DNA from: a virus
Length of the DNA: 64,000 bases
IMG/VR virus record: IMGVR_UViG_3300045988_115450
Location: 32,001 to 96,000 of that record
Direction: 5' to 3' (one strand)
Below, piece by piece: positions 4,420 through 28,107 of the stretch. Made by a program: the position numbers and the translations under genes. Each line of letters opens with the position of its first letter. Position 1 is the stretch's first letter. The notes below the pieces were generated by a model. That model worked only from the letters and a program-made list of their open reading frames with translations, was not told the DNA's origin and searched no databases.

Positions 4420-5628
4420 TTATTCGCTTGCCTTGAAATTGTATACAGGCTTGATGATGTTCGCGACCTCTACGGTGTCCGCAATATTGGCAATGATTTC
4501 CTCCATCGTCTTGTAAGCCATCGGACTTTCATCAATGGTGGAACGGCTGACAGATGTGGTGAAGATACCCTTCATGGAATCCTCATACTCCTCGAGAGAA
4601 ACCAGCTCTTTCGCCTTACTGCGGCTCATTACTCGACCAGCACCATGAGGAGCTGAACAGTTCCAATCATCATTACCCTTGCCGATACCGATGATACAAC
4701 CATCACGCATATTGATAGGAATGAGGAGCTTTTCACCAGCTTTCGCAGAGATAGCCCCCTTGCGAACCATATTCGTTCCAAACTCAATGTAGTTGTGAAC
4801 GGTCTCGAACATCGGCAAATCCCAGTAGGCGATGTCACTTCCGAACAAACTGCTGACGATTCGATTTGCGATTTCATATCGGTTGGTTGCCGCAAAATGC
4901 TGACACGCTTTCATGTCGTGAAGATAATCTTCCCGGTGCTTTCCTGTGAGGTAGCACAGTTCCTTCGGAATCCCGAGAGGGTTCGGAGAGAACTTTCTAT
5001 GAAGCTCGGCAATCGCTTTCTGAATTTCCTTTTTGCGCCCCTGCGCCTTGTAATCAACAATCAGTTTCTCTTGTATAGCAATGAGTTCGTCCTTACCTTG
5101 CATAGTCTCAACGGCAAGGTTCTGATAGTATTCGGCAACCTGTTTTCCCAAATTGCGGCTACCAGTATGAATCACAAGGTATTTTACCCCTTCGGAATCA
5201 GTATCAATCTCGATGAAATGGTTTCCACCCCCGAGAGAACCGATGGAGCGAACCAGTCGTTCCGGGCCTTTGAGTGCCTTATAGCACCGAATATATTCAA
5301 TTACCTCGGTAGGGTAGATAGCCGTCTCGTTTACTTCACGACCACTTGGGACGTTCTCCCGGATAGCCTTGTCGAGATAATCGAAGTCAATGTCAATCTT
5401 ACCCAGTTCCACGGTCAGCATACCGCAACCAATGTCAACGCCAACGATGTTCGGAATGACCTTATCCCCCAAATCAGCCGTAAAGCCAACGACACAACCA
5501 GCCCCAGCATGAACATCGGGCATGATACGAACCTTGCAATCTGCGAAAGCTGGTTGTTTGACAAGGGTATAAATCTGATTCAGAGCCGTAGGCTCGATGT
5601 TATCAGTAAAAATCTTTAAGTCGCTCAT
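4420..5628 (-). CDS. rtcB: RtcB-family RNA 3'-phosphate ligase
   Basis: RtcB signatures: GGGNHFIE, HTGSRNLG, APHGAGR, MPDVHAGAG. Start set at MSDLKIF, which overlaps the upstream stop as TAATG. The track alternative is 5667. Confidence 0.9.
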   Translation of the reverse strand: MSDLKIFTDNIEPTALNQIYTLVKQPAFADCKVRIMPDVHAGAGCVVGFTADLGDKVIPNIVGVDIGCGMLTVELGKIDIDFDYLDKAIRENVPSGREVNETAIYPTEVIEYIRCYKALKGPERLVRSIGSLGGGNHFIEIDTDSEGVKYLVIHTGSRNLGKQVAEYYQNLAVETMQGKDELIAIQEKLIVDYKAQGRKKEIQKAIAELHRKFSPNPLGIPKELCYLTGKHREDYLHDMKACQHFAATNRYEIANRIVSSLFGSDIAYWDLPMFETVHNYIEFGTNMVRKGAISAKAGEKLLIPINMRDGCIIGIGKGNDDWNCSAPHGAGRVMSRSKAKELVSLEEYEDSMKGIFTTSVSRSTIDESPMAYKTMEEIIANIADTVEVANIIKPVYNFKASE

Positions 5629-6005
5629 TACACCACCATCACAATCCATGTTAAAATAATCTGACAAATATGAACCAGCTGATCCTGAACCAGGTTGATT
5701 TTCTTAAAGTTCGCCTTCAAGTCGTCAACACAGAAGTGAATAACGCAGTTCACTACCAGCATAACAAAAAACAGGACCGGTAGGTTGAGCTTCAGATAAA
5801 CCGCCACCGGCAGCATCGTCATGAACGTCCAGCTAGAAGCGTGCATAAACAGTGCTGCAAGATAGTCGTGCCTGTACTTCTCTCCAGGAGAGTTCTTTCT
5901 CCACCAATCCTTCTGCTTCATACTGGCAAGCACACCCTGCAGGTAATAATCATCCACGATGTGAGCAAACAGCATCACCAATAACACAAATAGCTTAGTC
6001 TGCAT
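5628..6005 (-). CDS. small multi-pass membrane protein (DUF3307-like)
   Basis: Four hydrophobic segments; HIVDDYYLQ motif near the N-terminus. Confidence 0.6.
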   Translation of the reverse strand: MQTKLFVLLVMLFAHIVDDYYLQGVLASMKQKDWWRKNSPGEKYRHDYLAALFMHASSWTFMTMLPVAVYLKLNLPVLFFVMLVVNCVIHFCVDDLKANFKKINLVQDQLVHICQIILTWIVMVV

Positions 6006-9410: not shown

Positions 9411-10577
9411 TTAGTTTTTGAGATCCTTCTTCATCGTGGCTTCAATATCAAAGCCAAACTTCTGACTATAGCGAGTGATAACTCCATCAATACTTCCTCT
9501 GTTAACCATTCGATAGTAGCTCATAAGACCGAGCACATATTGCAGTTGCTCAAGAGGCCAATAAGTTCCGCTCTTTCTGTCCTTCGCGTAATTGAAAAGC
9601 ATCGCCTCGAAGTTGCGCTTCTTCTTATACCCAATCGTGATCTGGTTGTCCTTGTTGATCATCACACCGAGTACCCAATTCTTATGATACGAGGGGCCGT
9701 AATGAGTTTTCTCATCTTTGATGAGATAACTGGCCCCGAAAAGTCTAAACAGATTTTCAATCTTTCTGATAATGAAGCTCTTATCAAACTCAATACCACA
9801 GCTGATGTTCATATCATCAGCATATCTGGTATACGCGAACCTTCTACCCTTTTCATCAGGGTTGTTTTCCGGGTTCTGCAGGCTACGCAGAAACTTACTG
9901 AACTCAAAATCAAACGGAATCATAATCAGATTGGTCAGCATCGGGCTGATCGGCGTTCCCATAGGTAGACCTCCATCCAGGAAGCAAAGCGACAGAGCTT
10001 TTCTAAGCTCTTCTCTCCCGCTTTTGCACTCCATAATGAGACAGAACGGGTAAATCATAGACAGCGCGTTCCATACAAACTCCGGAGTGGTATTAGGAAA
10101 GAAACCGCTGATGTCAGTCTTTAAATACCACTTGCTCTTATTCCACTGATGGACTTTTGCGGCGTCTACACTACTTCTGTTTTTGACATAAGCGTATGCA
10201 GCGGCATGGCTGCTCGCATAAAACTCAGATTCTAACAGCAGTTTTAGCTCTCGCAGACAATTCATCAGTTCGTCGTCCGGCGCGTTAATCTCTCTCATGC
10301 CGCCGCTCTTTTTCGGGATAAAAAACTTATGGTAATGTGTATGAAGATCGCTTTCAAGCAGTTCCTGATGCTTTTTGTTAAATGCTCTCAGTAGTTCAAT
10401 CTTTTTCCCCGTGTCAAACCCTGCCAGGATTCTCTCGGGCAGTCTCTCATATGCAACTGTTCTAGTATATAGAGATCTCGATTCCCTCACATGTTTATCT
10501 TGAAGCAGCGCAGACATAATATCCTCTAAAGAAATCTGCTTATACGGCTCTGTAATTCTTGCTGTTACATAAATCAT
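9411..10577 (-). CDS. reverse transcriptase, retron-like (388 aa, RT domain only)
   Basis: FFIPKKSGGMREINAP (RT1); SSVDAAKVH; LKTDISGFFPN (RT3); LPMGTPISPMLTNL (RT4); YTRYADDMNIS (RT5, YADD); NWVLGVMIN at the position of the retron VTG block. No accessory domains. Confidence 0.85.
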   Translation of the reverse strand: MIYVTARITEPYKQISLEDIMSALLQDKHVRESRSLYTRTVAYERLPERILAGFDTGKKIELLRAFNKKHQELLESDLHTHYHKFFIPKKSGGMREINAPDDELMNCLRELKLLLESEFYASSHAAAYAYVKNRSSVDAAKVHQWNKSKWYLKTDISGFFPNTTPEFVWNALSMIYPFCLIMECKSGREELRKALSLCFLDGGLPMGTPISPMLTNLIMIPFDFEFSKFLRSLQNPENNPDEKGRRFAYTRYADDMNISCGIEFDKSFIIRKIENLFRLFGASYLIKDEKTHYGPSYHKNWVLGVMINKDNQITIGYKKKRNFEAMLFNYAKDRKSGTYWPLEQLQYVLGLMSYYRMVNRGSIDGVITRYSQKFGFDIEATMKKDLKN

Positions 10578-10593
10578 ATTATTCTCCTTGCTT

Positions 10594-10937
10594 TTATCTG
10601 AAACTATATATGGATTTGGATGTCAGTACGAGATGCTCATCGCGGAGCTTGTCGTCGTCTGAGACGGTGAAATCCCTGACTTGGCGTTTATTGTTTGCCG
10701 GATACCCCTGCTGGTGGCGGATGTTGACCCTGTCGAACGAATATCCTTCTGGTTTTTCCTGTTGTTCGGGCGCTGCTTCTCATCAGAGAAGATGCCACCG
10801 GGGTGTTAAGCCTTCTTGGAGGGCACCAAGCATTGGTCTGCTATCGCACGCAGCGGGGTTCCTCTTTCGGACGATGTGCCACTCTTCCGTTCCGGTAAGA
10901 GTTTCTATTTTTTTAAATAGAAAGTGCTTTCAGATAT
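10594..10937 (-). ncRNA. IR-bracketed structured RNA gene, copy A (candidate retron msr-msd)
   Basis: No minus-strand ORF. The 9-bp inverted repeat TATCTGAAA (10595-10603) / TTTCAGATA (10928-10936) brackets it. In RNA sense the 5' arm is followed by G and then the hairpin TTTCTATTT-AAAAAA-ATAGAAA. The core 10604-10901 is homologous to 16549-16848. The element ends 17 nt before the RT ATG. Confidence 0.55.
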
Positions 10938-11037
10938 TTAGATTGAATTGGTTGTTAGCAGGCGTGCCATTCCCCTGCATCTCTTTAGCCATTAAGGCGC
11001 GTGGCGACACGAAATTTCCACCTCAAACAACCAATAT

Positions 11038-11706
11038 TTAATATGCTTCCATAGTAAAATCAAAGGCGTCGATCAAAACTATCTTCTTGATCGAACGCCC
11101 ATTCACAAAATTCATGAAGTTTGCTACTGCACAAGAGCAAATCATCCGCACAGAAGGAGCGATACTAAGCTCCAGGTTACATGCAGATCGAGGAGTTTCA
11201 GCCAGAGCTTCCTCTTGAGTAAACTGCATGGAGTTAATCAGATTTTCAACCATCGCACTAGAACTCCAGTCAGCCGCAAAGTGTTGCGCGTCCGTCAGCC
11301 GAAGTCTGGTATCAAACACAGCTTTGATATACGGGTTTCTAGCATTTTCTTCGCAAATTTTTCTGCGGAGATCAATGTTGTCCACCATAAGGAAGACATA
11401 GCCGGACAGACGCTGGTTGGTATACCCCTCCTGAACTACTTCAATACCATTTGCATCAGGATTGATACTCAACATCATATCTTTCACGGCTTCAGCTTTA
11501 TTTCTACCGATGTCGCTATCATTGAACATCTGATTCGCGATATTGTGCGACTCAACCTTGTCAAAATCGTACAGAGTGACCTTCTCAAGCCCAGCTCTTG
11601 CCAACAATTCGGCTACAGTGGAACCGGACGCACCACAACCGATGATATGTACTCTTTCTTTAACCTTCGTGGGATTAAAGAACTCAATACTCTTCGATAA
11701 ATTCAT
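11038..11706 (-). CDS. ThiF/MoeB-type E1-like adenylyltransferase (222 aa, minimal)
   Basis: Rossmann loop IIGCGASGSTVAELLARAGL; then LYDFDKVESHNIANQ (DxD...N..Q, with the usual Arg replaced) and LMVDNIDLRR. Confidence 0.8.
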   Translation of the reverse strand: MNLSKSIEFFNPTKVKERVHIIGCGASGSTVAELLARAGLEKVTLYDFDKVESHNIANQMFNDSDIGRNKAEAVKDMMLSINPDANGIEVVQEGYTNQRLSGYVFLMVDNIDLRRKICEENARNPYIKAVFDTRLRLTDAQHFAADWSSSAMVENLINSMQFTQEEALAETPRSACNLELSIAPSVRMICSCAVANFMNFVNGRSIKKIVLIDAFDFTMEAY

Positions 11707-11718
11707 CTTTATACCTCC

Positions 11719-11997
11719 TTATAGCATTAAACAATTCAAAAATACATCACTATCGACTTTACTTTCAATCGGCTCAAACATCCAAGAAGCCCAAGCAACA
11801 AATCTTAATTTGCCTCTTTCTTCAATGCAAATACGTTCAACTTGAATGCCGTTAATCAAGGATGTCAATGAGCGCACTGTTATGATCTTACCGCAATAGC
11901 GCGTTTTATCCCCTTCAAATATCCCGTGATCATTTTTAGAAAGAATCGCCGTTCCACTACCTGTATCTACGGAAAACAGATCAGGGTCAGACATCAT
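11719..11997 (-). CDS. NCLLL-tail family protein 5 (92 aa; tail ...FLNCLML)
   Basis: Shares only the C-terminal tail with the four upstream genes. A 16-codon out-of-frame remnant of the family N-terminus lies just upstream. Confidence 0.6.
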   Translation of the reverse strand: MMSDPDLFSVDTGSGTAILSKNDHGIFEGDKTRYCGKIITVRSLTSLINGIQVERICIEERGKLRFVAWASWMFEPIESKVDSDVFLNCLML

Positions 11998-12061
11998 GTC
12001 TTCCTAACTCCTCACCCTGACCTTCTGCCCAACATACATATCTTCAAGTTTCATACGTCAC

Positions 12062-12394
12062 CTACAACAACAAACAGTTCATAAAAACCTGCTCATCAAT
12101 AGATTGCTTTAACCGCAACACACTTTTATAGAAAGACATCTCTTTTTTGCTAACCCTTACCCTGTACCAACCGCCAAGTTCATACTCAACGATCTCGCCG
12201 CCGTCTCTTATAAACTCTCTGAGGCAAGGATCGCCCTCCGCGTACATCACATCGTCGGCGTATATAAATCTTTCGTTTGTGATGATGTCTACGCTCTGCG
12301 ACACAGCCCCATTCGGAAATACCGCCCGTAAGTTATCATTAAATTCATCCCACGTTTTTGGAATAAACTCAACCCGCTGCCCAGGTCTAAACAT
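12062..12394 (-). CDS. NCLLL-tail family protein 4 (110 aa; tail ...VFMNCLLL)
   Basis: Paralog of 12404..12745 and 12753..13082 (MFxxGQ[KR]V...WDEF...GWY.V...); conserved C-terminus. Confidence 0.7.
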   Translation of the reverse strand: MFRPGQRVEFIPKTWDEFNDNLRAVFPNGAVSQSVDIITNERFIYADDVMYAEGDPCLREFIRDGGEIVEYELGGWYRVRVSKKEMSFYKSVLRLKQSIDEQVFMNCLLL

Positions 12395-12403
12395 TATATC
12401 ACC

Positions 12404-12745
12404 TCACAATAATAAGCAATTTATGAACAATTTTTCATCAATTGACCTCATGTCTTCTTTCAGACACAACACGCTTTCGTGAAATTTCAGTTTTACTCCA
12501 TTTATATTCACCATATACCAACCAGTAGCATAGTACTTGATAATCTCACCTCCATTTATTAGAAGCTCGTTAAACCAAGAATCGCCTTCCCCATAAAGCA
12601 CCCCTGCAACCAATATCATTTCTCTATGAGTAGTTGAGAATTCATCTAATATCATATCTCTCGCAAACAACTCCATTAAAGCATCCCGAAATTCATCCCA
12701 TGACTTTGGGGCAAGCGTAACTTTCTGTCCAAGTTCAAACATCAT
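12404..12745 (-). CDS. NCLLL-tail family protein 3 (113 aa; tail ...LFINCLLL)
   Basis: Paralog set; conserved C-terminus. Confidence 0.7.
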   Translation of the reverse strand: MMFELGQKVTLAPKSWDEFRDALMELFARDMILDEFSTTHREMILVAGVLYGEGDSWFNELLINGGEIIKYYATGWYMVNINGVKLKFHESVLCLKEDMRSIDEKLFINCLLL

Positions 12746-12752
12746 ATTACCT

Positions 12753-13082
12753 CTATAGCAGCAAACAATTCATAAGTACCTCTTCGTCAACATATGCTTC
12801 TTCCATCGACCGTAGCATCGTCTCATAGAACCACGCTCTTTCTCCGCCAAAGTCTACAATGTACCAACCACACTCGAAGTCTAATTCAATCACGCCACTC
12901 ATCCTGCGTAACTTATAAAAATCGGGAGCGCTATATCCTGCTGCACTAGCTGCAAGATACCCAGTGGTATCACAGCTCGTAAACCTTTTTGCGCTGCGAG
13001 GAAGATGCTTTAGGTAAGCGCTGCAAAACTCATCCCAGCTCCTCAATGCTATCCTGACTCGTTGTCCGATCTCGAACATCAT
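12753..13082 (-). CDS. NCLLL-tail family protein 2 (109 aa; tail ...VLMNCLLL)
   Basis: Track ORF is 12753..13133. Trimmed to MMFEIGQRV... behind AGAGGAG. Confidence 0.7.
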   Translation of the reverse strand: MMFEIGQRVRIALRSWDEFCSAYLKHLPRSAKRFTSCDTTGYLAASAAGYSAPDFYKLRRMSGVIELDFECGWYIVDFGGERAWFYETMLRSMEEAYVDEEVLMNCLLL

Positions 13083-13092
13083 ATCAACTCCT

Positions 13093-13437
13093 CTATAACA
13101 GCAGGCAATCCATAAGTGTCTTTTCGTCAACACTTTTTTCTTTTAATTGACACGGCGCTGTTTCGCCCGGCCCACCCACCAAACACTCATCTCTTACTTC
13201 GCCAAAGTCAACGCGCCAAATCCAATAGTCATCCGGTTCCAGATAAATTGTCGCTCCGTATTTATCTGGAGCATTAAAATTGTCACCTTCAATCATTTCG
13301 CATCCATCATCGACGCATTCTTGAAACACTGAATGAAACCTACGTTTCACGTGTTCCACCGCACTCTCCAAATTCCAATAAACACCGGATAAATCAATAC
13401 CCTGGTCTGTTTCTGTTATCACACAATATACCTTCAT
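13093..13437 (-). CDS. NCLLL-tail family protein 1 (114 aa; tail ...TLMDCLLL)
   Basis: Track ORF is 13093..13542. Trimmed to MKVYCVITE... behind AAAGGAG. The N-domain is unrelated but the C-terminal tail is the same. Confidence 0.65.
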   Translation of the reverse strand: MKVYCVITETDQGIDLSGVYWNLESAVEHVKRRFHSVFQECVDDGCEMIEGDNFNAPDKYGATIYLEPDDYWIWRVDFGEVRDECLVGGPGETAPCQLKEKSVDEKTLMDCLLL

Positions 13438-13611
13438 ACCGGTCTTCTCCTTTCTTATGTACCTCTGAACAGCTAACCAGCTGTTTAAGTTCAAAAGTTT
13501 TCTGCTCTGGGAGTAGGAAAACTTTTGAAGCGACACAGCCATTTGTTACTCCCTCGTTCCGACAAGAGTGATATGTAATTTAACATATCTGTACAGGCAC
13601 ATATGTTTTTT

Positions 13612-14298
13612 TTACTTAATTAACATCTTACCGTCACGCCAATCGGGCCGCTCATCAATAATTTTATCTGCGTCCTCCATGAATTCTTCAAGCTCAACCG
13701 CGGCGTTCATAATCCACTCGATGCCATCCTGTACATCACGCACGTCCACCTTCTCAAACCGGTCAATGTTATCGAAAAACCATCTGCACAAATCATATAC
13801 AGCGGGGTTCCATCGTTCCACTGCGAGTTCCACATTGTCGCTTTCGTATAGGATGCCTTCTCTAACATCATAAACCTGTGAAGATATGTAGCCTTTCTTA
13901 TTGAAAATCTGAAAGACGTAGAAATCATCAACGTCTGTCAGCAAATCTGCTCTATACTTTATATCCGTAGAAGATGGACTGACACCCATGTTCACATGAG
14001 AATGCCCGTACAACCGAACCTTATTGAATATCTCCGTGTTAAGAGAATCCTGCCAGTTCACATAGTCCGCATCTTCAGGTTCGGTGCTTGCCGACGTGAC
14101 CTTCTGAGGGAATACCAAGACGTCCTCCACGATAAACTCAGCTGGATTTTCCAACCTTCTTACAACTCCGTGCCATCCAACCTCCAGATTCCTATTCATA
14201 ACAAGCAAACACGTCTTCATCCATGCCTTCTTACTGTATACGATTTTGCACGGATTTGTCGCGGCCAACAAATCCGTTGCATTAGTTGCCTTATTCAT
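13612..14298 (-). CDS. JAB/MPN (JAMM) metallopeptidase (228 aa)
   Basis: Complete JAMM signature: upstream Glu (LEVGWHG) plus HSHVNMGVSPSSTD (HxHx7SxxD). Confidence 0.8.
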   Translation of the reverse strand: MNKATNATDLLAATNPCKIVYSKKAWMKTCLLVMNRNLEVGWHGVVRRLENPAEFIVEDVLVFPQKVTSASTEPEDADYVNWQDSLNTEIFNKVRLYGHSHVNMGVSPSSTDIKYRADLLTDVDDFYVFQIFNKKGYISSQVYDVREGILYESDNVELAVERWNPAVYDLCRWFFDNIDRFEKVDVRDVQDGIEWIMNAAVELEEFMEDADKIIDERPDWRDGKMLIK

Positions 14299-15706
14299 TG
14301 CTCTTATTCTCCTTTATCCATTTAATTGCGTCGATGTAATTAACTACTCGCCCATCCGGCAACTCCAATACTACAGCGCCTTTTCTCAACAACTCTTCAA
14401 GGAATGATCTCAATACGACAGTATCACTAAGATTCAGATTCCCGCTTTCGGCGCACGTCGTGTCTACCGTATAAACGTAGTCACATTTGTCGCAAGATTT
14501 CTCTAGCGCCTGTTGCCAGCTCCCCATGCAACCATATTTATCAAGGTGTGTGTTGGGGAGATAGCTGTTGTATTCACAGCCATACCCATATGCCTTGATG
14601 GGTAGTACCATTCCTCCGAAAGAAAGTCTCCATGCGGAACACATTCTTACTTTGATATTAGAGTCAATGAAAATCCCTGTCATTAACTTTTTAGTATCAC
14701 TTTCTGTCAGGCCCACATACGAAGACCGCGTATAAAAAATCGACGACCGATTGTTGATGTACTCTCTCGCAATCTCTGGATCAAACAGTGTCATATAACC
14801 AGTTACAACATATACGATATTCCCATCTTTGTCACCGCTCTCAACGGACACATTTTTGTTCGACAAAAAATAATCCATTAACTCGTTCTTGCTTTCAACA
14901 TTACTGTTGTCAATTGCTTCCACCAACAAAGACCAACCTTCGTATTCTCTATACCAATCTCTCAAATCGGACATCAATTTATTGATCTGACTTCTTGCAC
15001 TCTCCATCTTCTTTGCGTATCTTTCCCTCTGTACGTTCCTTAGCTTTCCCTCATAGCCATAAAGGTAATATCTCTTTTTAGCTGAGGCCACGTCCACAGC
15101 AGCGGCAACCATATCGTTCATCGCTTTACAGATTACACTCATGCCGGAGTCTTCTTTAGACAGAATCTTAATAAACTTTGACTCCGCTTCAGTCCTGTCT
15201 TTAATGTACCATGGGCAGAATACATTGAAAAGACACACTAGGTAATGCCACGAGCCATAGTTATCCACGTTGGTAAGGACAACCGTACTCTTCCTCTCTT
15301 CATTACTGAAAATTCTCAGTATGATACCGAGTCGTTCTTTCATTAGATTCAGCTCTCTTGCCGTCTTCTCTTTCCAACTGCTCGCACATTTCATATTACT
15401 GACTAAAGTTTCTACGGCCTTAACCTTATCACACACGCAAAATGTAATCGTGTTGTCTTGAGAAGTTACCTCCGAAAAACGCTCTTTGTCTTTTATCCAC
15501 GTAATCCAATCAGCACAATTAGGATCTACCACTCTAACCATGATACGCACGTCCGCCGGAACTCTTGGCTTCAAAAACAACCGAGCCATTGCCAACGCAA
15601 AGTCATCGCCTTTGAACGTCCCGTCACCAGCAATATTAGAAAACTCAGACTCCAGCTCTGGGGCCAGCACTAAAACTTCACTGCGTTTCAAACAATTTGA
15701 AAACAT
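14291..15706 (-). CDS. hypothetical 471-aa protein with a Cys-rich C-terminal domain
   Basis: Track ORF is 14291..15772. Trimmed to MFSNCLKR... behind AAAGGAG. The C-terminal LPNTHLDKYGCMGSW loosely resembles an E2 HPN...C motif. Overlaps the JAB gene start by 8 nt. Confidence 0.65.
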   Translation of the reverse strand: MFSNCLKRSEVLVLAPELESEFSNIAGDGTFKGDDFALAMARLFLKPRVPADVRIMVRVVDPNCADWITWIKDKERFSEVTSQDNTITFCVCDKVKAVETLVSNMKCASSWKEKTARELNLMKERLGIILRIFSNEERKSTVVLTNVDNYGSWHYLVCLFNVFCPWYIKDRTEAESKFIKILSKEDSGMSVICKAMNDMVAAAVDVASAKKRYYLYGYEGKLRNVQRERYAKKMESARSQINKLMSDLRDWYREYEGWSLLVEAIDNSNVESKNELMDYFLSNKNVSVESGDKDGNIVYVVTGYMTLFDPEIAREYINNRSSIFYTRSSYVGLTESDTKKLMTGIFIDSNIKVRMCSAWRLSFGGMVLPIKAYGYGCEYNSYLPNTHLDKYGCMGSWQQALEKSCDKCDYVYTVDTTCAESGNLNLSDTVVLRSFLEELLRKGAVVLELPDGRVVNYIDAIKWIKENKSNE

Positions 15707-15788
15707 ATATCTTCTCCTTTCTTTATGAACTCTTGGCAGGCCATCCGACGTAACCGAATGCCCTCCCAGCAACTCACTGTGTTATGTA

Positions 15789-15814
15789 CGAGGCCGGACA
15801 ATGTCCGGCCTCGT
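15789..15814 (-). promoter_or_regulatory. 11-bp GC-rich stem-loop between the 79-aa gene and the 471-aa gene
   Basis: CGAGGCCGGAC-aatg-GTCCGGCCTCG; no U-tract, so a possible attenuator or processing site. Confidence 0.4.
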
Positions 15815-15832
15815 AGATTGTGCTAACTCAAA

Positions 15833-16072
15833 TCAGATCGCGTTACCTTGCGCCTTAACAATAGCACTCAGAGTACAAATACCAGCGGCACCAAGTTCGG
15901 CAAAAGTGCAATCCATATCATCAGGCGTCAGAATCGTGCCGGAAAGAGAATTGACGCTACGGCTGCACTCAATTCCGATCTTCTCGAACAGAGAACGAGG
16001 GGTCTCTACATGTTCATCTACGGCCTGGCTATCAAAACGGCGGGTGGTACTTCTAACATTCACAATAATCAT
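15833..16072 (-). CDS. small ubiquitin-like candidate (79 aa; Gly76 followed by NAI)
   Basis: MIIVNVRS... beta-strand start as in ThiS/MoaD; ends ...AIVKAQG-NAI. Size and context (E1 plus JAB) are the basis, not homology. Confidence 0.5.
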   Translation of the reverse strand: MIIVNVRSTTRRFDSQAVDEHVETPRSLFEKIGIECSRSVNSLSGTILTPDDMDCTFAELGAAGICTLSAIVKAQGNAI

Positions 16073-16113
16073 AATATACTTCCTTTCTGTTATTACATCT
16101 ATGCTTATTTGTT

Positions 16114-16503
16114 TTAGCCAGCTACTACGATCTTGGAACTGACCCGTGCCATCATAACGTCGATCTCTTCCAGCGCTTCGCGCACCTGGGCTTCAATCTT
16201 TTCTACCTTCTCGATAACAGAAGCATATCTCTCGGCAACAACCTCACGTACGGAACGGTCAGCTTCGGTAATAAGACTCACAGTTACGACCGCACGACCA
16301 GAGCCATCACAAGACTCAGCCTCATAGATAATACCGGTCGGTGCTACTACGCCTCTCTCGCCAGCGAGAGTGTAAAACAGTGCGTTGCCATCTTCGTCCA
16401 GCAGTTGCACAGACTTAGGCCGGTACAGAGCTGCGCGATTGATTTCTTCAAGAGTGAAAGCACTCTTGAGTGTTACTGCGTTACCACACACAATAATTTC
16501 CAT
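16114..16503 (-). CDS. hypothetical protein (129 aa) ending ...KIVVAG
   Basis: MEIIVCGNAVTLKSAFTLEEI resembles the ThiS/MoaD N-terminus; C-terminal Gly; first gene after ncRNA copy B. Confidence 0.55.
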   Translation of the reverse strand: MEIIVCGNAVTLKSAFTLEEINRAALYRPKSVQLLDEDGNALFYTLAGERGVVAPTGIIYEAESCDGSGRAVVTVSLITEADRSVREVVAERYASVIEKVEKIEAQVREALEEIDVMMARVSSKIVVAG

Positions 16504-16536: not shown

Positions 16537-16883
16537 TATAAAGTGATTCTATATATGGAATGATAGACCTAACCCGTGCGTTAGTACGCTGACGGGCTTG
16601 GTTATCTGAGGTACTGTGTGATCGACGTCGCTCCAACTCCGCATCGCTTTGGCGTTTGATGCCTTACGCTGTAACGGTGGTAGGCAAGTTGTGCGGCTTT
16701 CTTTATATGCTTCGCTTAGTAATCTTAGCCTTCTTGTCGCATCCATGACGCCGAGAGGTTTCTGGTCGAGAGCCATCGAGGTTGGTGCAACCTTTGCGAT
16801 GCTTCCCACACCTTCGGACGATATGTTACTCTCCCATTCTGGCAAGAGCCTCTGTGAATTTCAGAGTTTGCAATCACTTTATA
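16537..16883 (-). ncRNA. IR-bracketed structured RNA gene, copy B (paralog of 10594..10937)
   Basis: A 12-bp perfect inverted repeat, TATAAAGTGATT (16537-16548) / AATCACTTTATA (16872-16883), brackets it. In RNA sense the 5' arm is followed by G and then the hairpin CTCTG-aaattca-CAGAG. The core 16549-16848 shares CTATATATGGA, TTGGCGTTT, AGCCTTCTTG and TTCGGACGATxTGxxACTCTxCC with copy A, at similar offsets. Confidence 0.55.
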
Positions 16884-17825: not shown

Positions 17826-17902
17826 TGGTGGTTCCTGCCCGGCTCGAACGGGCGACCATCCAGTTATGAGCTGGACGCGCTAACCAACTGCGCTAAGGAA
17901 CC
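17826..17902 (-). tRNA. trnM-CAU: tRNA-Met or Ile2 (anticodon CAU), 77 nt, CCA encoded
   Basis: Reverse complement folds as GGTTCCT-TA-GCGC-AGTTGGTTA-GCGC-G-TCCAG-CTCATAA-CTGGA-TGGTC-GCCCG-TTCGAGC-CGGGC-AGGAACC-A-CCA. Confidence 0.9.
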
Positions 17903-17978
17903 AGGTACGTTTAAAGCCGCTGAATTTATCAGCGGCTTTAAACTGTTAATGAAAGCAAGTGTCCGTATAAAACGAACG

Positions 17979-18053
17979 TGGCAGCGCCGGACTGAGATCG
18001 AACAGTCTTCCACGGAGTCAAAGTCCGTTGCATTACCGTTATGCTACGGCGCT
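17979..18053 (-). tRNA. trnQ-UUG: tRNA-Gln (UUG), 75 nt, CCA encoded
   Basis: AGCGCCG-TA-GCAT-AACGGTA-ATGC-A-ACGGA-CTTTGAC-TCCGT-GGAA-GACTG-TTCGATC-CAGTC-CGGCGCT-G-CCA. Confidence 0.85.
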
Positions 18054-18164
18054 ATATAAATCAAGCAGAGCAGAGCAGAGTTTAAAGCCATTCCAGGCTA
18101 TGTAAAGAAAGGAGGTGGTTTATCAACAATAACAGGTAGGAGAATCATTTTCTGTTGCTTGATA

Positions 18165-18239
18165 TGGGGTAGGCGACGAGTGCCGATCTCGCGTTTCCGG
18201 TTTGGAAGACCGGTGTTCTAGCCGTTGAACTACGCCTAC
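18165..18239 (-). tRNA. trnG-UCC: tRNA-Gly (UCC), 75 nt, CCA encoded
   Basis: GTAGGCG/CGCCTAC acceptor stem; CCGGT-CTTCCAA-ACCGG anticodon arm; unusual T-loop ATCGGCA. Confidence 0.8.
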
Positions 18240-18269
18240 ATTTTTGCGGTTCCGCAAACCGCATTTTTT

Positions 18270-18899
18270 TTAATTCATATATAAATCATAATAACTTTGT
18301 TTTCTTCTTGGTTTCAAATCTGGATTTTTTAAACGCCTTTTGATGAACTCAACTGTATTATCCAGCCCATAGTTCCTGACGTATGTATTGATCCTGTTTG
18401 CTCCCAAACCTAAAGTTTTAGCCCAGTCCTTCCCAGTATGTATCGTTCCGTCAACATCAATAAGCGAAGTTGTAGACTTGTATTTCGAATTATCTGCCAA
18501 TGTTACCCATCTGCAATTATCAGGAGAATAATCCCCGTCCCAATCAATTCTATCAATAGTCAAACCATCATCGTACCCGTTAGTTAATGACCAACTCTCA
18601 AATAATTCTGGATTGCGCATCCAATCATCACAAACCTTAACACCCTTAGCGCCATACCATCTGTAGCTCTTATTACTCTTATCATAGCACCTAGCTTTCA
18701 TATCGCTAAAAATTCTCCGGAGCTTGTCGTCACTCCATGAAGCATCATAATTTATATAACCCCCGCTTCTTCCGATATGTCTACAAGCTTTCGCCTGCTC
18801 AATATGCCTTTTCTGTTTGTTCGTTTCAAACCCACACTCAGCACATCTCACATGGTATAATCTATGCCCGTCCCTATGCCTGAAATCACACTCATACAA
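18270..18899 (-). CDS. HNH_3-like homing endonuclease with C-terminal HTH (209 aa)
   Basis: N-terminal CAEC...C..H zinc finger. TIDRIDWDGDYSPDNCRWVTLADNSK resembles DHIDG...NLRWVT..EN, but the first His is Arg. C-terminal WAKTLGLGANRINTYVRNYG. Confidence 0.6.
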   Translation of the reverse strand: MYECDFRHRDGHRLYHVRCAECGFETNKQKRHIEQAKACRHIGRSGGYINYDASWSDDKLRRIFSDMKARCYDKSNKSYRWYGAKGVKVCDDWMRNPELFESWSLTNGYDDGLTIDRIDWDGDYSPDNCRWVTLADNSKYKSTTSLIDVDGTIHTGKDWAKTLGLGANRINTYVRNYGLDNTVEFIKRRLKNPDLKPRRKQSYYDLYMN

Positions 18900-19047
18900 G
18901 ACATCGAAAATACCTATCCTAGTACCAACAATATTCTCTTTTTCCAGAATATCACCATCTTTCTGCGTGTTGCTAAATAATAATCCGATGAGAGTGCTGC
19001 CCTCTCGCCTGCGTTGTTCACTGTACTACTGTTATACTAATCGGATG

Positions 19048-19128
19048 TACGGGCGACAAGATTTGAACTTGCAAGCCTTACGGCACCGGGGCCTAAACCC
19101 GGCGTGTATACCGTTCCACCACGCCCGC
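19048..19128 (-). tRNA. trnL-UAG: tRNA-Leu (UAG), type II, ~81 nt, no encoded CCA
   Basis: GCGGGCG acceptor stem; CCGGG-TTTAGGC-CCCGG anticodon arm; long variable arm; T-arm GCAAG-TTCAAAT-CTTGT. Confidence 0.8.
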
Positions 19129-19210
19129 ATGGCACCACTAAGTCATGGTCGGCTGCGCATTTATCCTTTTTTGAATCGTGGTAGATGATTTTGCTTCGTA
19201 CAACCACGCA

Positions 19211-19285
19211 TGGACTGAGTGGAGAATTTTGAAATCTCGACCTCTGGTTCCCAAAACCAGCGTTCTGCCTCTGAACTACACCCAG
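19211..19285 (-). tRNA. trnP-UGG: tRNA-Pro (UGG), 75 nt, CCA encoded
   Basis: CTGGT-TTTGGGA-ACCAG anticodon arm; T-arm GAGAT-TTCAAAA-TTCTC. Confidence 0.8.
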
Positions 19286-19288
19286 ATA

Positions 19289-19363
19289 TGGAGGCCGATG
19301 CGAGTTCGAACTCAGCGTCTGTGGGTTACAAAGCCACTGTTTTACCACTTAAACTAATCGGCC
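19289..19363 (-). tRNA. trnT-UGU: tRNA-Thr (UGU), 75 nt, CCA encoded
   Basis: GGCCGAT/ATCGGCC acceptor stem; anticodon loop TTTGTAA with a C31-C39 mismatch; T-loop TTCGAAC. Confidence 0.75.
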
Positions 19364-19513
19364 ACGCACCCCGTTTTGCGGGGTGGCTATGTAAGGGAAT
19401 CAAAAAGGGGAACTCCTGTCTCTTCCAGGATGCCAACACACTACTACGGACTGCCAGAGGCAAACCGCCACTTTTCAGGTGTCATAGTCCGCAAACTATG
19501 GGCTTTTCTTTAG

Positions 19514-19595
19514 TGCGGGATAAGAGACTTGAACTCTTACGTCTATCGACATCGAGACTTAAACACGAGGTGTCTACCGATTCCACCAATCCCGC
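19514..19595 (-). tRNA. trnL-UAA: tRNA-Leu (UAA), type II, ~82 nt, no encoded CCA
   Basis: GCGGGAT/ATCCCGC acceptor stem; loop TTTAAGT; long variable arm TGTCGATAGACGT; T-arm AAGAG-TTCAAGT-CTCTT. Confidence 0.8.
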
Positions 19596-19602
19596 ATATT
19601 GA

Positions 19603-19940
19603 ACTTGCTACAACCCAGCCTGGTGGTTGACCCGTGGGCGTTGATAACTGACCCAAACCATTAACCCAGGATTTTGTAAAACTTTAACCGTTAACCTTTG
19701 ATTCTTGAACTTTAATCTTCTGAAGATCTTTGAGCCTTGAATTTTGAAATTTTAACTTTGAAGTTTGAGCTTTACAGCAACATTTCTTCTATAAGAAATT
19801 AGATTAACAGTCCAATCTTTTTGTAAGCGCAAAATTTCAAGTTTTGCTTTGTAGTTGGCACATATTTGTTCATTTTTACATCGAACCAAGTGCCGTCAGC
19901 ACGATGGGTTACCGTTTTAGGTTTTCGGGTTGCAGCAAGT
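19603..19940 (-). other. IR-bracketed ~340-bp ORF-free element with short-period repeats
   Basis: ACTTGCTACAACCC (19603-19616) versus GGGTTGCAGCAAGT (19927-19940), matching at 13/14. Interior has AACTTTAA / CTTTGA / GGTTAAYGGTT repeats and several local hairpins. Confidence 0.4.
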
Positions 19941-19948
19941 TGCTTATT

Positions 19949-20602
19949 TTAGTATTCTACGGTGATTGTAGTGGTCGCATTGGACACAGATAGCTGAGAA
20001 TCTACATCCGCAGTAAACGTGTCAATCCAATCGCTCAAAACCTTGATTTCATTACCAATGTCAAGCGGATCAACGAGTTCATACGTATTGTTGGCAATAT
20101 ACTCTTCTCTCAACCGCTTAACGACCTCAGAATCCTTGGTTGTCTTGGCCTCTTTAGGCTGGCACTGGAGGAAATTCATGATATACTGTTCAGCTTTCGC
20201 TTCAATCCACTCGCCTTCATGTTTGGAAACCTCAGCACGGGCTCTTTCGTACTGCCGGACCATTACATCAAGCAAATCTTTCTTAGCCATGATTCCATGG
20301 CTTTTCATTTCGATGGCTTCGGCTACGGTGTAAGGTTCGCCGCCAATTACCACCGGGGTTTTGGCATTGGAGAGCACAACTGCTCTCTTAATAGCCGTCC
20401 GACGAGCAATCAAGTCCGTAACAGACTGATAATCAGACTTCATATCCTTCTTGAGGGTTTCGACCAGCACACCGCCGATCTTTTTGTCGCTCACTTTCTT
20501 ACTGGCAACGAAGGTTTTACCAGAAGTAGCATTGAAAATTCTAGCGTCCAAAATTTTCAGCTCTGCAAGAGCTTTATGGACGGTCATAGTTTCTTTGTTC
20601 AT
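19949..20602 (-). CDS. hypothetical protein (217 aa) embedded in the tRNA island
   Basis: ORF track; plus-strand ORFs 20019..20333 and 20219..20635 are shadows. Confidence 0.65.
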   Translation of the reverse strand: MNKETMTVHKALAELKILDARIFNATSGKTFVASKKVSDKKIGGVLVETLKKDMKSDYQSVTDLIARRTAIKRAVVLSNAKTPVVIGGEPYTVAEAIEMKSHGIMAKKDLLDVMVRQYERARAEVSKHEGEWIEAKAEQYIMNFLQCQPKEAKTTKDSEVVKRLREEYIANNTYELVDPLDIGNEIKVLSDWIDTFTADVDSQLSVSNATTTITVEY

Positions 20603-20653
20603 ATTAGTTCCTCACTTTCTTATTTATGGAATTAGATTTTTATCGTGGTATCG

Positions 20654-20744
20654 TGGTCTCCCTGGGTGAATTCGAATCACCATATACCTTATGAGGGCCT
20701 TCCAATTATAAGTTGGAAGCTATAACCAATTTAGCTACAGGGAG
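20654..20744 (-). tRNA. atypical 91-nt tRNA, anticodon UAU, long variable region, CCA encoded
   Basis: CTCCCTG-TA-GCTA-AATTGGTTA-TAGC-T-TCCAA-CTTATAA-TTGGA-(19-nt variable AGGCCCTCATAAGGTATAT)-GGTGA-TTCGAAT-TCACC-CAGGGAG-A-CCA. Confidence 0.65.
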
Positions 20745-21024
20745 ATATTTGTTCAGCAACCACAACCGCCCTATCAATCAGTCGGCCTAACCAAAAGATA
20801 GGGCTGGATTGTGTTGCCCAACCGTGCCTGAGAGCTTTCTTGCCTAGCCTGTACTTAACCAGGTGTCTGCAATCAATGTTTAGGTTGCTGGTTTTGACCC
20901 TCGCTCTAGAACCAGTTAACTAGAGCGATTGAGAGCTACTAGACGGAATTGCACCGCCTTGAAGTCATAAGTGAGGCGCGAGAGGAGTTACGCCCACCTC
21001 TTCACCTGCTTGGAGTAGCATATG

Positions 21025-21100
21025 TGGCACCAGCACTAAGATTCGAACTTAGAACTACGGTTTTGGAGACCGCCGTTTTTCCACTTAAAACTATGCTGGT
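21025..21100 (-). tRNA. trnW-CCA: tRNA-Trp (CCA), 76 nt, CCA encoded
   Basis: ACCAGCA-TA-GTTT-AAGTGGAA-AAAC-G-GCGGT-CTCCAAA-ACCGT-AGTT-CTAAG-TTCGAAT-CTTAG-TGCTGGT-G-CCA. Confidence 0.9.
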
Positions 21101-27938: not shown

Positions 27939-28107
27939 ACAGCGTCCTACCTTTCCGCTACCCTAGCAAGCTGCTGCTAGGGTAGCTTTTTTTTGCAGGC
28001 ATAGACAGAATCCACCTATGTTATCCCTGCGACCTCGCAGGCCAGGGCGATCCCAGCCTACGAACGCTCCCGGCCTAACGCCTGTTTATAGTCGCCGGGA
28101 CGACTCT

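What the first reader, a model, noticed from the sequence alone, without database searches (positions are those of the whole stretch)
9411..10937. Retron-type reverse transcriptase preceded by a ~340-nt ORF-free RNA gene bracketed by inverted repeats
The 388-aa ORF has the full RT palm series. These are FFIPKKSGGMREINAP, SSVDAAKVH (resembling the retron SxxNAxxH block), LKTDISGFFPN, LPMGTPISPMLTNL and YTRYADDMNIS. NWVLGVMIN sits where retron RTs have VTG. There is no maturase, endonuclease or other extension.

The 460 bp upstream have no minus-strand ORF. TATCTGAAA (10595-10603) and TTTCAGATA (10928-10936) are inverted repeats. On the minus strand, the 5' arm is followed at once by an unpaired G and a local hairpin (TTTCTATTT-AAAAAA-ATAGAAA). 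The 3' arm ends 17 nt before the RT ATG. This is the msr-msd-ret layout, with a1/a2 arms and a candidate branching G. The RNA is longer than classical msr-msd, and the element is carried on a phage.
Basis: partly seen in the sequence, partly recalled or inferred. Interest (0 to 1): 0.8.

Follow-up and report, generated by a model that had tools for sequence, protein, structure and literature searches.

The report
Phage retron-like RT with several template RNAs
A gut bacteriophage carries a reverse transcriptase related to bacterial retron enzymes, together with at least two copies (2-4 in related phages) of a conserved structured RNA that looks like its primer-template; known retrons have one such RNA, and what the phage uses this for is unknown.

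Summary
The 388-aa RT ORF (9411-10577, minus), the ORF-free upstream region and the 9-nt inverted repeat are all at the stated coordinates.

A single 9-nt repeat in ~470 nt is within chance. It is real because the same layout recurs in more than 100 related phage loci: arm a1, an invariant G, two hairpins, a ~200-nt interior, "UAG", then arm a2. All nine a1/a2 pairs show compensatory changes (about 96% paired, against about 35% out of register).

By sequence profile and predicted fold the RT is closest to solved retron RTs.

It departs from canonical retrons in several ways:
- The VTG and NAxxH signatures are degenerate.
- No msd hairpin is conserved. The interior is weakly structured and usually diverges faster than RT synonymous sites.
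- The RNA unit is multi-copy: two in this window (10595-10936 and 16540-16880) and 2-4 per locus elsewhere, often in tandem.
- The RT is co-conserved with a cassette of an unknown protein, a JAMM peptidase and an E1/ThiF-like enzyme.

It is a lineage-specific insertion.

Verdict: a real, widespread, phage-borne variant of the retron design. cDNA synthesis and function are untested.

The parts
9411..10577 (-). Reverse transcriptase, 388 aa, retron-related. It has a conserved N-terminal extension of about 75 aa, an intact YADD, and no maturase, endonuclease or effector fusion.
10595..10936 (-). ncRNA unit A (342 nt), from a1 to a2, directly upstream of the RT.
10928..10936 (-). a1 arm (UAUCUGAAA) of unit A.
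   Evidence: covariation
10927..10927 (-). Invariant G immediately 3' of a1. By analogy with retrons it is the candidate 2'-OH priming (branching) residue. This is inferred.
   Evidence: G invariant in the alignments. The priming role is not tested.
10852..10926 (-). Conserved 5' domain of unit A. It holds SL1 (10902-10923), SL2 (10882-10901, 5 bp + bulge + 3 bp + 3-nt loop) and the motif GUggCAcaUCGUCCG (family consensus GUAACAAAUUGUC).
   Evidence: CM R1 36.1 bits, E 3e-9
10614..10851 (-). Hypervariable, weakly structured interior of unit A. It is the presumed template and is mildly A/C-rich.
10595..10613 (-). Conserved 3' end of unit A: CCAUAUAUAG followed by the a2 arm UUUCAGAUA (10595-10603). 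The invariant G at 10604 precedes a2.
16540..16880 (-). ncRNA unit B (341 nt). a1 is AAAGUGAUU (16872-16880), G is at 16871, a2 is AAUCACUUU (16540-16548). SL1, SL2 and the CCAUAUAUAG flank match unit A. It is followed by a 129-aa ORF (16114-16503).
   Evidence: 19.9 bits, E 6e-4 with filters off; z -4.45
10951..11031 (-). Skipping-rope RNA (Rfam RF02924), inserted between the ThiF stop codon and unit A. It is not part of the retron-like unit.
11038..11706 (-). E1/ThiF-like adenylyltransferase (222 aa). A homolog lies within about 2.3 kb upstream of the RT in 129 of the 130 loci with a hit (of 133 with enough flank; one locus has it downstream), directly adjacent in a majority of them.
13612..14298 (-). 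JAMM/MPN-type metallopeptidase-like protein with the motif HSHVNMGVSPSSTD (HxHx7SxxD). It is co-conserved with ThiF and the RT.
   Evidence: weak JAB hit; motif read directly from the sequence
14291..15772 (-). Conserved protein of unknown function. The likely start is the ATG at 15706 (471 aa). It is the first gene of the conserved cassette.

Best explanation
This is a phage-encoded reverse-transcription module related to retrons, with one RT serving several cognate RNAs.

Shown:
- A catalytically intact retron-clade RT.
- A family of ~250-350-nt RNAs found only near it.
- Each RNA is closed by a covarying long-range stem (a1/a2).
- An invariant G follows a1, then two conserved hairpins and a GUAACAAAUUGUC-like motif.
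- An invariant G (usually UAG) sits just before a2.
- The ~200-nt interior has no conserved structure and usually diverges faster than synonymous sites.

Inferred, by analogy with retrons:
- The RT recognises the two-hairpin 5' domain.
- The a1/a2 duplex places the 2'-OH of the invariant G next to the template end.
- cDNA synthesis starts opposite the G before a2, so products would begin 5'-CTA. It then runs into the variable interior and gives one single-stranded DNA per unit, possibly branched to the RNA.

Speculative:
- The fast-changing interiors are the specificity-carrying part of the products in phage-host or phage-phage conflict.
- The co-conserved E1-like/JAMM/unknown-protein cassette is the partner or effector module.
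For: RT affinity:
- Retron HMMs score best.
- The family profile matches solved retron RTs at 1e-33 to 1e-13, group II at 1e-12 and DRT2/DRT3 at about 1e-4.
- The fold search puts 11 retron RT structures on top.
- YADD and the palm motifs are invariant across 21 diverse homologs.

RNA structure:
- a1/a2 covariation is seen in two separate sets of units.
- SL2 has 7 pairs, all with compensatory changes.
- SL1 and SL2 are predicted independently in most of 66 sequences with unrelated stem sequences.
- RNAalifold on full-length unselected alignments returns a1/a2 + SL1 + SL2.
- A G.U pair at the base of SL2 is conserved in 14 of 16 sequences, which argues for RNA on the RT-sense strand.

Linkage of the units to the RT:
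- The covariance model finds units next to the RT in nearly all of 92 loci.
- In the 64-kb window it finds only two, 6 kb apart, both in the RT neighbourhood, with filters off.
- 216 of 250 5'-domain hits are complete a1|G...G|a2 units.

Variable interior:
- Close relatives keep the ends 96-100% identical.
- The interior is 73-93% identical where RT four-fold sites are 79-99% identical.

Cassette:
- A search seeded with ThiF finds the RT downstream in 79 of 80 loci. The order is unknown protein, JAMM, ThiF, RNA unit, RT.
Against: - No cDNA, transcript or branch has been observed. Everything past the anatomy is analogy.
- The retron signature motifs (VTG, NAxxH) are not conserved (VTG as a signature is taken from PMC8632793).
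- There is no msd hairpin. The interior has a mean z-score of -0.83, and only 9 of 66 are below -2.
- Units also precede genes other than the RT, and sit in tandem with no gene between them. A role that does not involve reverse transcription cannot be excluded.
- The ThiF/JAMM linkage could be synteny within one phage lineage rather than function.
- In a few close pairs the interior is more conserved than RT synonymous sites (WIN-L006, L134-L027, L112-L054). This implies recombination and complicates the rate argument.
Confidence: 0.6

Rival explanations
1. The repeated units are RNAs that the RT does not copy, for example 5' leaders or processing signals of phage early genes, or independent small RNAs. 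They sit near the RT only because gene order is conserved in this phage lineage.
For: - Unit B precedes a 129-aa ORF rather than the RT.
- Each unit ends 10-40 nt before a ribosome-binding site and start codon, or abuts another unit.
- Other structured RNAs cluster in the same regions: tRNA arrays, tmRNA, drum and skipping-rope.
- There is no msd hairpin.
Against: - The a1-G...G-a2 geometry, with hairpins right after the G, is the layout retron RTs use.
- Units were found only within a few kb of the RT. Only two occur in 64 kb.
- The RT family is almost never seen without a unit directly upstream.
- Tandem units with no ORF between them are hard to read as leaders.
Confidence: 0.2
2. The RT does copy the units, but not in the retron way. 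It might use a 3'-OH or a protein as primer. Or it might jump between template ends, with the a1/a2 stem bringing them together, and make concatemeric or double-stranded DNA as DRT2 does.
For: - The interior is long and unstructured, unlike msd.
- The closing stem juxtaposes the two template ends.
- The retron signature motifs are degenerate, and a conserved N-terminal extension is absent from solved retron RTs.
- Stop-free frames across the unit are somewhat enriched: 16 of 66 sense and 11 of 66 antisense, against 6-7% in shuffles.
Against: - Most units have stop codons in all frames, so a DRT2-type endless ORF is not a family feature.
- The RT is far closer to retron RTs than to DRT2 or DRT9 in both sequence and fold.
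- An invariant G at the a1 boundary is what 2'-OH priming predicts.
Confidence: 0.15
3. It is a diversity-generating retroelement. The variable interior would be a template repeat used to mutagenise a target gene.
For: The interior evolves faster than synonymous sites in most close pairs. The element is carried on a phage.
Against: - Neither unit's interior matches anything else in the 64-kb window.
- Substitutions are mostly transitions with no adenine bias.
- The solved DGR RT ranks only 28th in the fold search and is absent from the sequence hits.
- No Rfam DGR-associated motif was found.
Confidence: 0.02
4. The inverted repeat is a chance match and the upstream region is ordinary spacer DNA.
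For: One 9-nt inverted repeat in ~470 AT-rich nt is expected about 0.4 times by chance (my estimate).
Against: - Covariation is seen across more than 100 units.
- The flanks are conserved.
- Covariance-model matches reach 58 bits.
- Fold z-scores are -3.8 and -4.5.
Confidence: 0.01

Closest known systems
Bacterial retrons (msr-msd ncRNA + RT + effector). The nearest RTs are type I-A/II-A (Ec78/Eco7, Ec83, St85/Sen2).
   Same: - The RT sequence and fold are nearest to these.
- The ncRNA is closed by a1/a2 inverted repeats.
- A conserved G follows a1, then msr-like hairpins.
- The RT gene lies directly downstream of the RNA.
- Neighbouring genes are co-conserved.
   Different: - It is carried by phages of about 45-150 kb as a conserved module.
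- There are 2-4 RNA units per RT, some in tandem and some kilobases away.
- No msd hairpin is present. The interior is long (about 200 nt) and fast-evolving.
- VTG and NAxxH are degenerate.
- The RT has an N-terminal extension of about 75 aa.
- The partner genes (E1/ThiF-like, JAMM, an unknown 471-aa protein) are not among the retron effectors I know of. The paper searches found none.
Retrons carried on prophages and satellites (for example Ec67 and Ec73 in P2/P4-type elements; from my own knowledge and PMC9122126)
   Same: A retron-type RT on a mobile viral element.
   Different: Those are ordinary single-ncRNA retrons with a fused or adjacent nuclease/ATPase effector, sitting in variable defence hotspots. 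This one is a syntenic core-like cassette shared by a large and diverse gut-phage lineage.
DRT2 and DRT9 (defence-associated RTs with an upstream structured ncRNA template)
   Same: A stand-alone RT with a long structured ncRNA immediately upstream. The template region is not a hairpin.
   Different: - The RT similarity is weak (E about 1e-4; ranks 24-26).
- There is no consistent endless reading frame.
- There is no A-rich or U-rich template tract.
RT-associated RNA motifs RT-1 to RT-19 and the skipping-rope/drum motifs (Weinberg et al. 2017, PMC5737381)
   Same: These are structured RNAs found next to RT genes, proposed there to be retron RNAs. Skipping-rope and drum RNAs do occur beside this RT family.
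   Different: - No Rfam family matches units A or B, even at E up to 10.
- Skipping-rope is a separate, sporadic insertion.
- I could not check whether any RT-n motif equals the 5' domain, because the supplement is not held.

Membership tests
Retron | RT belongs to the retron RT lineage | tested here: met
   - Best HMMs are retron models: PADLOC RT_II-A 5e-41 and RT_I-A 1e-38; NCBIfam retron_St85_RT 1e-47, though below its curated cut-off (162.9 against 235 bits).
- Profile against PDB gives retron RTs 1e-33 to 1e-13 and group II 1e-12.
- The top 11 structural matches are retron RTs.
- No explicit phylogeny was built.
Retron | Signature motifs NAxxH and VTG in the RT | tested here: not met
   Aligned to retron Ec83, NAKIH corresponds to AAKVH here (AVKRH in the family consensus), and VTG corresponds to VLG here (NLG in the consensus). 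VTG as a retron signature is taken from PMC8632793. NAxxH as a signature is from my own knowledge.
Retron | ncRNA flanked by inverted repeats a1/a2 that pair | tested here: met
   All 9 pairs have compensatory changes, with about 96% of cells paired against 30-43% when slid, in two sets of units. RNAalifold recovers the stem. Caveat: the units were chosen by an inverted-repeat search.
Retron | Conserved guanosine immediately 3' of a1 (branching residue) | tested here: met
   G follows a1 in the unconstrained repeat search. It is invariant in A4, A7 and A9. Its use as a primer is not testable here.
Retron | msr stem-loops recognised by the RT | tested here: met
   Two hairpins follow the G. SL2 has 7 covarying pairs. 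SL1 is present with unrelated sequences in most units. Recognition by the RT is not tested.
Retron | msd region forming a long stable hairpin | tested here: not met
   No conserved pairing is found in the interior. The mean z-score is -0.83, and only 9 of 66 are below -2.
Retron | One ncRNA per RT | tested here: not met
   There are two units in the window and 2-4 per locus in relatives, some in direct tandem. That known retrons have one ncRNA per RT is from my own knowledge.
Retron | Associated effector gene or domain (tripartite system) | tested here: inconclusive
   An unknown 471-aa protein, a JAMM protein and an E1/ThiF-like protein are co-conserved upstream. No toxin or effector domain was identified. 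The linkage may be synteny.
Retron | Production of multicopy single-stranded DNA joined 2'-5' to the RNA | not testable with these tools
   This needs expression followed by nucleic-acid analysis.
Diversity-generating retroelement | Template repeat / variable repeat pair with adenine-specific differences, and a DGR-clade RT | tested here: not met
   - No second copy of either interior is in the window.
- There is no adenine bias.
- The solved DGR RT is a distant structural match, at rank 28.
Group II intron | RT with maturase and DNA-binding/endonuclease domains, inside a ribozyme with domains I-VI | tested here: not met
   - TIGR04416 scores only 67 bits against a cut-off of 300.
- The ORF ends after the thumb.
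- No group II intron RNA was found by Rfam.
DRT2 | Drt2-type RT, and an ncRNA whose repeated copying creates an open reading frame | tested here: not met
   Drt2 scores 26.5 bits against a cut-off of 390. Only 16 of 66 units have a frame that is at least 90% open.
Skipping-rope RNA (RF02924), for the element at 10951-11031 only | Match to the Rfam covariance model at or above its gathering score | tested here: met
   The match is 50.3 bits against 36.7, full length 1-80, E 2.5e-10.

The most novel reading that the evidence does not exclude
One phage RT services an array of interchangeable template RNAs. The conserved ends are a docking and priming scaffold. The rapidly diversifying ~200-nt interiors are sequence cassettes that specify different single-stranded DNAs. 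That would be a naturally multiplexed, fast-evolving cDNA-producing system used in phage-host or phage-phage conflict, coupled to an E1/JAMM conjugation-type module.
Probability: 0.3. Interest if true: 0.9.

Novelty: new variant of a known kind. Interest (0 to 1): 0.78.

Why it matters
Retrons are known as bacterial anti-phage systems with one RNA per RT, and they are used as genome-editing tools.

This is a large, previously unannotated family. IMG/VR gave 219 confirmed stretches, species-representative genomes gave 72, and the protein search returned 2122 RT hits at E <= 1e-10 (a total that may extend beyond this family). The retron design sits in the phage itself. It comes with several template RNAs per enzyme, templates about 200 nt long and unstructured, and a new set of partner genes.

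If cDNA synthesis is confirmed, three things follow:
- It would show what retron-type reverse transcription is used for on the viral side.
- It would give a natural precedent for multiplexed retron arrays.
- It would offer RTs that accept long unstructured templates.

It would also assign a context to part of the 'dark' intergenic RNA of gut phages.

Tried and rejected
- **Skipping-rope RNA as the RT's cognate RNA.** Rejected. It is absent from a relative whose RT is 90% identical and from 35 of 37 other loci scanned. In L172 it lies after the RT instead.
- **A hidden ORF in the unit, sense or antisense.** The 160-aa plus-strand ORF at 10559-11041 spans the gap. Rejected. Open frames are only modestly enriched and not conserved, and close relatives differ by frame-breaking indels.
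- **A long msd hairpin.** Not found.
- **DGR-type target repeat or adenine mutagenesis.** Not found.
- **Function of the 471-aa cassette protein.** The AlphaFold model is confident (pLDDT 88.8). It has no significant PDB match and only one uncharacterised phage match. Pfam, PADLOC, PHROGs and NCBIfam are all empty.
- **Promoter and terminator scan around the unit.** Nothing above the shuffle expectation.
- **a1 as a -10 promoter box.** It resembles TGTAAT in many units. Rejected because a1 covaries with a2 and can be GC-rich, for example TTTTGCCGCCGT.
- **Literature.**
  - No paper links retrons with ThiF/E1/JAB partners or uses the phrase 'phage-encoded retron'.
  - A September-2026 preprint (10.64898/2026.09.22.753630) mentions 'ncRNA array', reverse transcriptase and cDNA, but could not be opened. 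Term counts show no 'ThiF', 'inverted repeat' or 'branching'. Overlap with this family cannot be excluded.
  - The supplement of Weinberg et al. 2017 is not held.
- **One script failed.** One search hit a MAFFT temp-file error and timed out. It was redone with Biopython.
Full report
**1. The observation**

Pfam RVT_1 matches residues 87-294. Upstream, 10578-11037 holds no minus-strand ORF of 40 aa or more.

The repeat finder reports TATCTGAAA (10595-10603) and TTTCAGATA (10928-10936) as 100% complementary, 324 nt apart. On the minus strand a1 is followed by G10927, CAC, and the hairpin UUUCUAUUU/AAAUAGAAA. a2 ends 17 nt before the ATG.

So the description is accurate. On its own, though, a 9-nt repeat in ~470 AT-rich bases is expected about 0.4 times by chance (my estimate). 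The single sequence proves nothing.

**2. What else is in the gap**

Rfam places a full-length skipping-rope RNA (RF02924, 50.3 bits against a gathering score of 36.7) at 10951-11031. That is between the upstream gene's stop codon and a1.

A phage whose RT is 90% identical (L003) lacks it, while keeping a1, both hairpins and a2. Among the fetched loci it occurs only in the window's three nearest relatives, and in a different place (just after the RT) in L172. It is therefore a sporadic insertion and not part of the RT's RNA.

**3. The RT family**

The protein search returned 2122 relatives at E <= 1e-10. Pattern scans found 219 confirmed stretches in IMG/VR (80 kept) and 72 in species-representative genomes. 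The kept viral contigs are mostly 45-150 kb. The genome hits are mainly MAGs of Oscillospiraceae, Lachnospiraceae and other Clostridia from gut, rumen and termite samples.

The window itself is a phage. It has a large terminase, a portal, an RtcB ligase, nine tRNA genes and a Pistol ribozyme. Nothing in the INPHARED phage collection is close. The best match is 42% identical, from an unannotated faecal phage.

**4. Where the RT belongs**

- PADLOC's best 25 models are all retron RTs (RT_II-A 5e-41, RT_I-A 1e-38).
- NCBIfam gives retron_St85_RT 1e-47 (162.9 bits, below its 235-bit cut-off), group II 1.5e-18 and Drt2 3e-6.
- A profile of 21 diverse homologs hits solved retron RTs (Ec83 1e-33, Ec78, Ec67, Kva2, Ec86). 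Group II follows at about 1e-12 and DRT2/DRT3 at about 1e-4.
- An AlphaFold model (pLDDT 87.4, pTM 0.80) has retron RTs as its top 11 PDB matches. Target-normalised TM is 0.68-0.84 for the seven single-domain RTs and about 0.41 for the longer retron Eco2 fusion, with rmsd 3-5 Å. Group II, G2L4, DRT9, DRT2 and DGR RTs come after.

The family is nonetheless atypical. Aligned to Ec83, the retron VTG reads VLG here and NLG in the family, and NAxxH reads AAKVH or AVKRH. There is also a conserved N-terminal extension of about 75 aa. I did not build a tree.

**5. The RNA is real and conserved**

In most loci the RT is preceded by a 300-400-nt ORF-free gap. An unconstrained inverted-repeat search on 128 distinct upstream regions gave the same picture in a large majority of them (99 passed the later filter): an arm ending ...UGUAAU or ...UGUAAC, followed by G, paired to an arm preceded by (U)AG that lies 10-40 nt before the start codon. 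The arm sequences differ widely:

- GUCUGUAAU / AUUACAGAC
- UAUGCAAU / AUUGCAUA
- UUUUGCCGCCGU / ACGGCGGCAAAA
- AAAAACUAAUAAA / UUUAUUAGUUUUU

On 64 diverse units, 96.7% of cells pair, all nine pairs have changes on both sides (172 cells), and pairing falls to 30-42% when the partner is slid. These units were picked by a repeat search, which inflates the percentage paired but not the compensatory changes.

RNAalifold on 16 full-length sequences aligned without reference to the repeat returns the same closing stem.

After the G come two hairpins. SL1 varies in length and sequence. SL2 has a fixed shape (5 bp, one bulged base, 3 bp, 3-nt loop) with seven covarying pairs. Then comes a GUAACAAAUUGUC-like motif. 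The 3' end is YAURUAG followed by a2.

A G.U pair at the base of SL2 is kept in 14 of 16 sequences. On the other strand it would be an A-C mismatch, so the structure belongs to RNA of the RT-sense strand.

The window's unit A fits all of this (CM 36.1 bits; fold z-score -3.8). No Rfam family matches it, even at E <= 10.

**6. The interior**

Between the conserved ends lie about 180-250 nt with no conserved pairing. Stability is barely above shuffles: mean z is -0.83, and 9 of 66 are below -2. This is not a retron-style msd hairpin.

Among near-identical phages the ends stay 96-100% identical while the interior accumulates substitutions and indels. In most close pairs the interior is more diverged than four-fold degenerate sites of the adjacent RT gene:

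| Pair | Interior identity | RT four-fold-site identity |
|---|---|---|
| L012/L017 | 0.877 | 0.961 |
| L040/L044 | 0.932 | 0.992 |
| L077/L082 | 0.875 | 0.972 |

Three pairs show the opposite, which points to recombination.

The changes are mostly transitions (170 against 89) with no adenine bias. Composition is mildly A/C-rich: 57% against 52% in the RT gene. No consistent reading frame exists. Neither interior matches anything else in the 64-kb window.

**7. The unit is multi-copy**

A covariance model of the 5' domain found the expected copy upstream of each RT. It also found further full-length copies on the same strand, mostly downstream of the RT and spaced 260-420 nt apart.

Reading L064 shows two complete units in direct tandem, each with its own arms: UAUGCAAU|G...UUAG|AUUGCAUA, then AUGUACAAU|G...UCAG|AUUGUACAU.

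An independent HMM-plus-repeat scan classed 216 of 250 5'-domain hits as complete units of about 250-350 nt, usually 2-4 per locus within the ±3-4 kb held. On 54 such non-RT-proximal units (53 from related loci plus the window's unit B), the arms again covary: 95.9% paired, 9/9 pairs with changes on both sides.

In the window, a search with filters off finds exactly two convincing copies. They are unit A, and unit B at 16540-16880 (19.9 bits, E 6e-4). Unit B has the following features:
- Arms AAAGUGAUU / AAUCACUUU, extendable to 13 bp.
- A G, SL1, SL2, and the same CCAUAUAUAG flank as unit A.
- A fold z-score of -4.45.
- A 129-aa ORF directly after it.

Nothing comparable lies elsewhere in the 64 kb.

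**8. Neighbours**

The gene upstream of unit A is an E1/ThiF-family adenylyltransferase. A homolog was found in 130 of 133 loci with enough flank. In 129 of them it lies upstream of the RT, adjacent in a majority and about 0.5-2.3 kb away in the rest.

A search seeded with ThiF instead of the RT finds the RT downstream in 79 of 80 loci. The exception is cut by a contig end.

Further upstream are two more conserved genes:
- A protein with an exact JAMM motif (HSHVNMGVSPSSTD), read directly from the sequence. PADLOC gives only a weak JAB hit.
- A 471-aa protein with no recognisable family or fold match.

The order (unknown protein, JAMM, E1-like, RNA unit, RT) is kept even where the unknown protein is only about 25% identical. 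This may reflect function, or only lineage synteny. I could not separate the two.

tRNA arrays, and sometimes tmRNA or drum RNA, usually follow the RT and its downstream units. In this window the tRNA array lies on the other side.

**9. Interpretation**

The anatomy matches the part of the retron design that sets up priming: a closing duplex, an invariant G at its inner edge, RT-proximal hairpins, and a fixed template start. The enzyme is a retron relative.

I therefore think the RT copies these RNAs from the G before a2 into the variable interior, probably primed by the 2'-OH of the G after a1. That would give one ssDNA per unit. This step is inferred and not shown.

The system fails several defining retron features: the signature motifs, the msd hairpin, and one RNA per RT. 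I file it as a new variant that works like a retron, not as a member of a described retron type.

Its biological role is open. The fast-evolving interiors and the E1/JAMM partners suggest a conflict system. Whether it is defence carried by a temperate phage or counter-defence, I cannot tell.

**10. Novelty caveat**

Paper searches found no retron with E1/JAB partners and no 'phage-encoded retron'.

A preprint dated 24 September 2026 (10.64898/2026.09.22.753630) contains 'ncRNA array' ten times, along with reverse transcriptase, cDNA and gut. It could not be opened. It does not contain 'ThiF', 'inverted repeat' or 'branching'. It may or may not describe this family.

Noticed in passing
window 10951-11031 (-); also L172 6406-6476: Skipping-rope RNA (RF02924) sits between the ThiF stop codon and unit A. 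A second, unrelated-in-sequence instance lies right after the RT in L172. Weinberg et al. 2017 reported an unexplained association of this motif with particular nearby protein genes. This RT/ThiF neighbourhood may be one such context.
   Followed up: partly
window 28028-28105 (-): Pistol self-cleaving ribozyme, 63.9 bits against a gathering score of 34.5. It sits about 300 nt upstream, on the same strand, of an ORF (26739-27725) with a weak integrase-family match.
   Followed up: no
window 17826-21100 (-): An array of nine tRNA genes (Met, Gln, Gly, Leu-tag, Pro, Thr, Leu-taa, Ile-tat, Trp) on the same strand as the RT cassette. In related phages the tRNA arrays, and in L009 a tmRNA, lie directly downstream of the RT and its extra RNA units.
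   Followed up: partly
window 4420-5667 (-): An RtcB-type RNA ligase (phrog_1075, E 1e-125) lies a few kb downstream of the RT. It joins the tRNA genes and a self-cleaving ribozyme in one genome, which suggests an RNA-repair or RNA-processing theme.
   Followed up: no
window 11719-13542 (-): Five tandem paralogous small ORFs (92-149 aa) lie between the JAMM and ThiF genes. All end in a near-identical tail, ...(V/I)D(E/S)xxF(M/I/L)NCL(L/M)L. They are restricted to the window's closest relatives (2-4 loci). The conserved C-termini next to an E1-like adenylating enzyme are unexplained.
   Followed up: partly
window 10559-11041 (+): A 160-aa antisense ORF spans the whole intergenic region, covering unit A and the skipping-rope RNA. 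It is not conserved in the relative whose RT is 90% identical, so it is probably spurious.
   Followed up: yes
L012 5669-5774 and its close relatives (L013, L017, L018, L019, L225, L232, L235, L236): A drum RNA (RF02958, 72.3 bits) lies downstream of the RT and its tandem units, before the tRNA genes. It is another motif of unknown function from the same 2017 survey.
   Followed up: partly
window 15707-16113 (-): About 400 nt lie between the 129-aa ORF that follows unit B and the likely start of the 471-aa cassette protein. The stretch holds only a doubtful 79-aa ORF with no family match. The covariance model finds no unit there.
   Followed up: partly
L160-L236, JAMM-like proteins (for example L168 3057-3998): In most relatives the JAMM protein is 280-330 aa and abuts ThiF directly. 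It carries a long low-complexity tail with lysine-rich and then acidic/aromatic stretches (...DDDDPYGYY). The window's version is shorter (228 aa) and lacks the tail.
   Followed up: no
unit interiors, for example L014 about 168 nt after the G; window 10680 region: A short motif resembling the end of the 5' domain, (U)UGUCAAG or CGUCAGG, recurs once more in the middle of many units, about 115-225 nt before a2. It may mark a stop or a second recognition site.
   Followed up: partly
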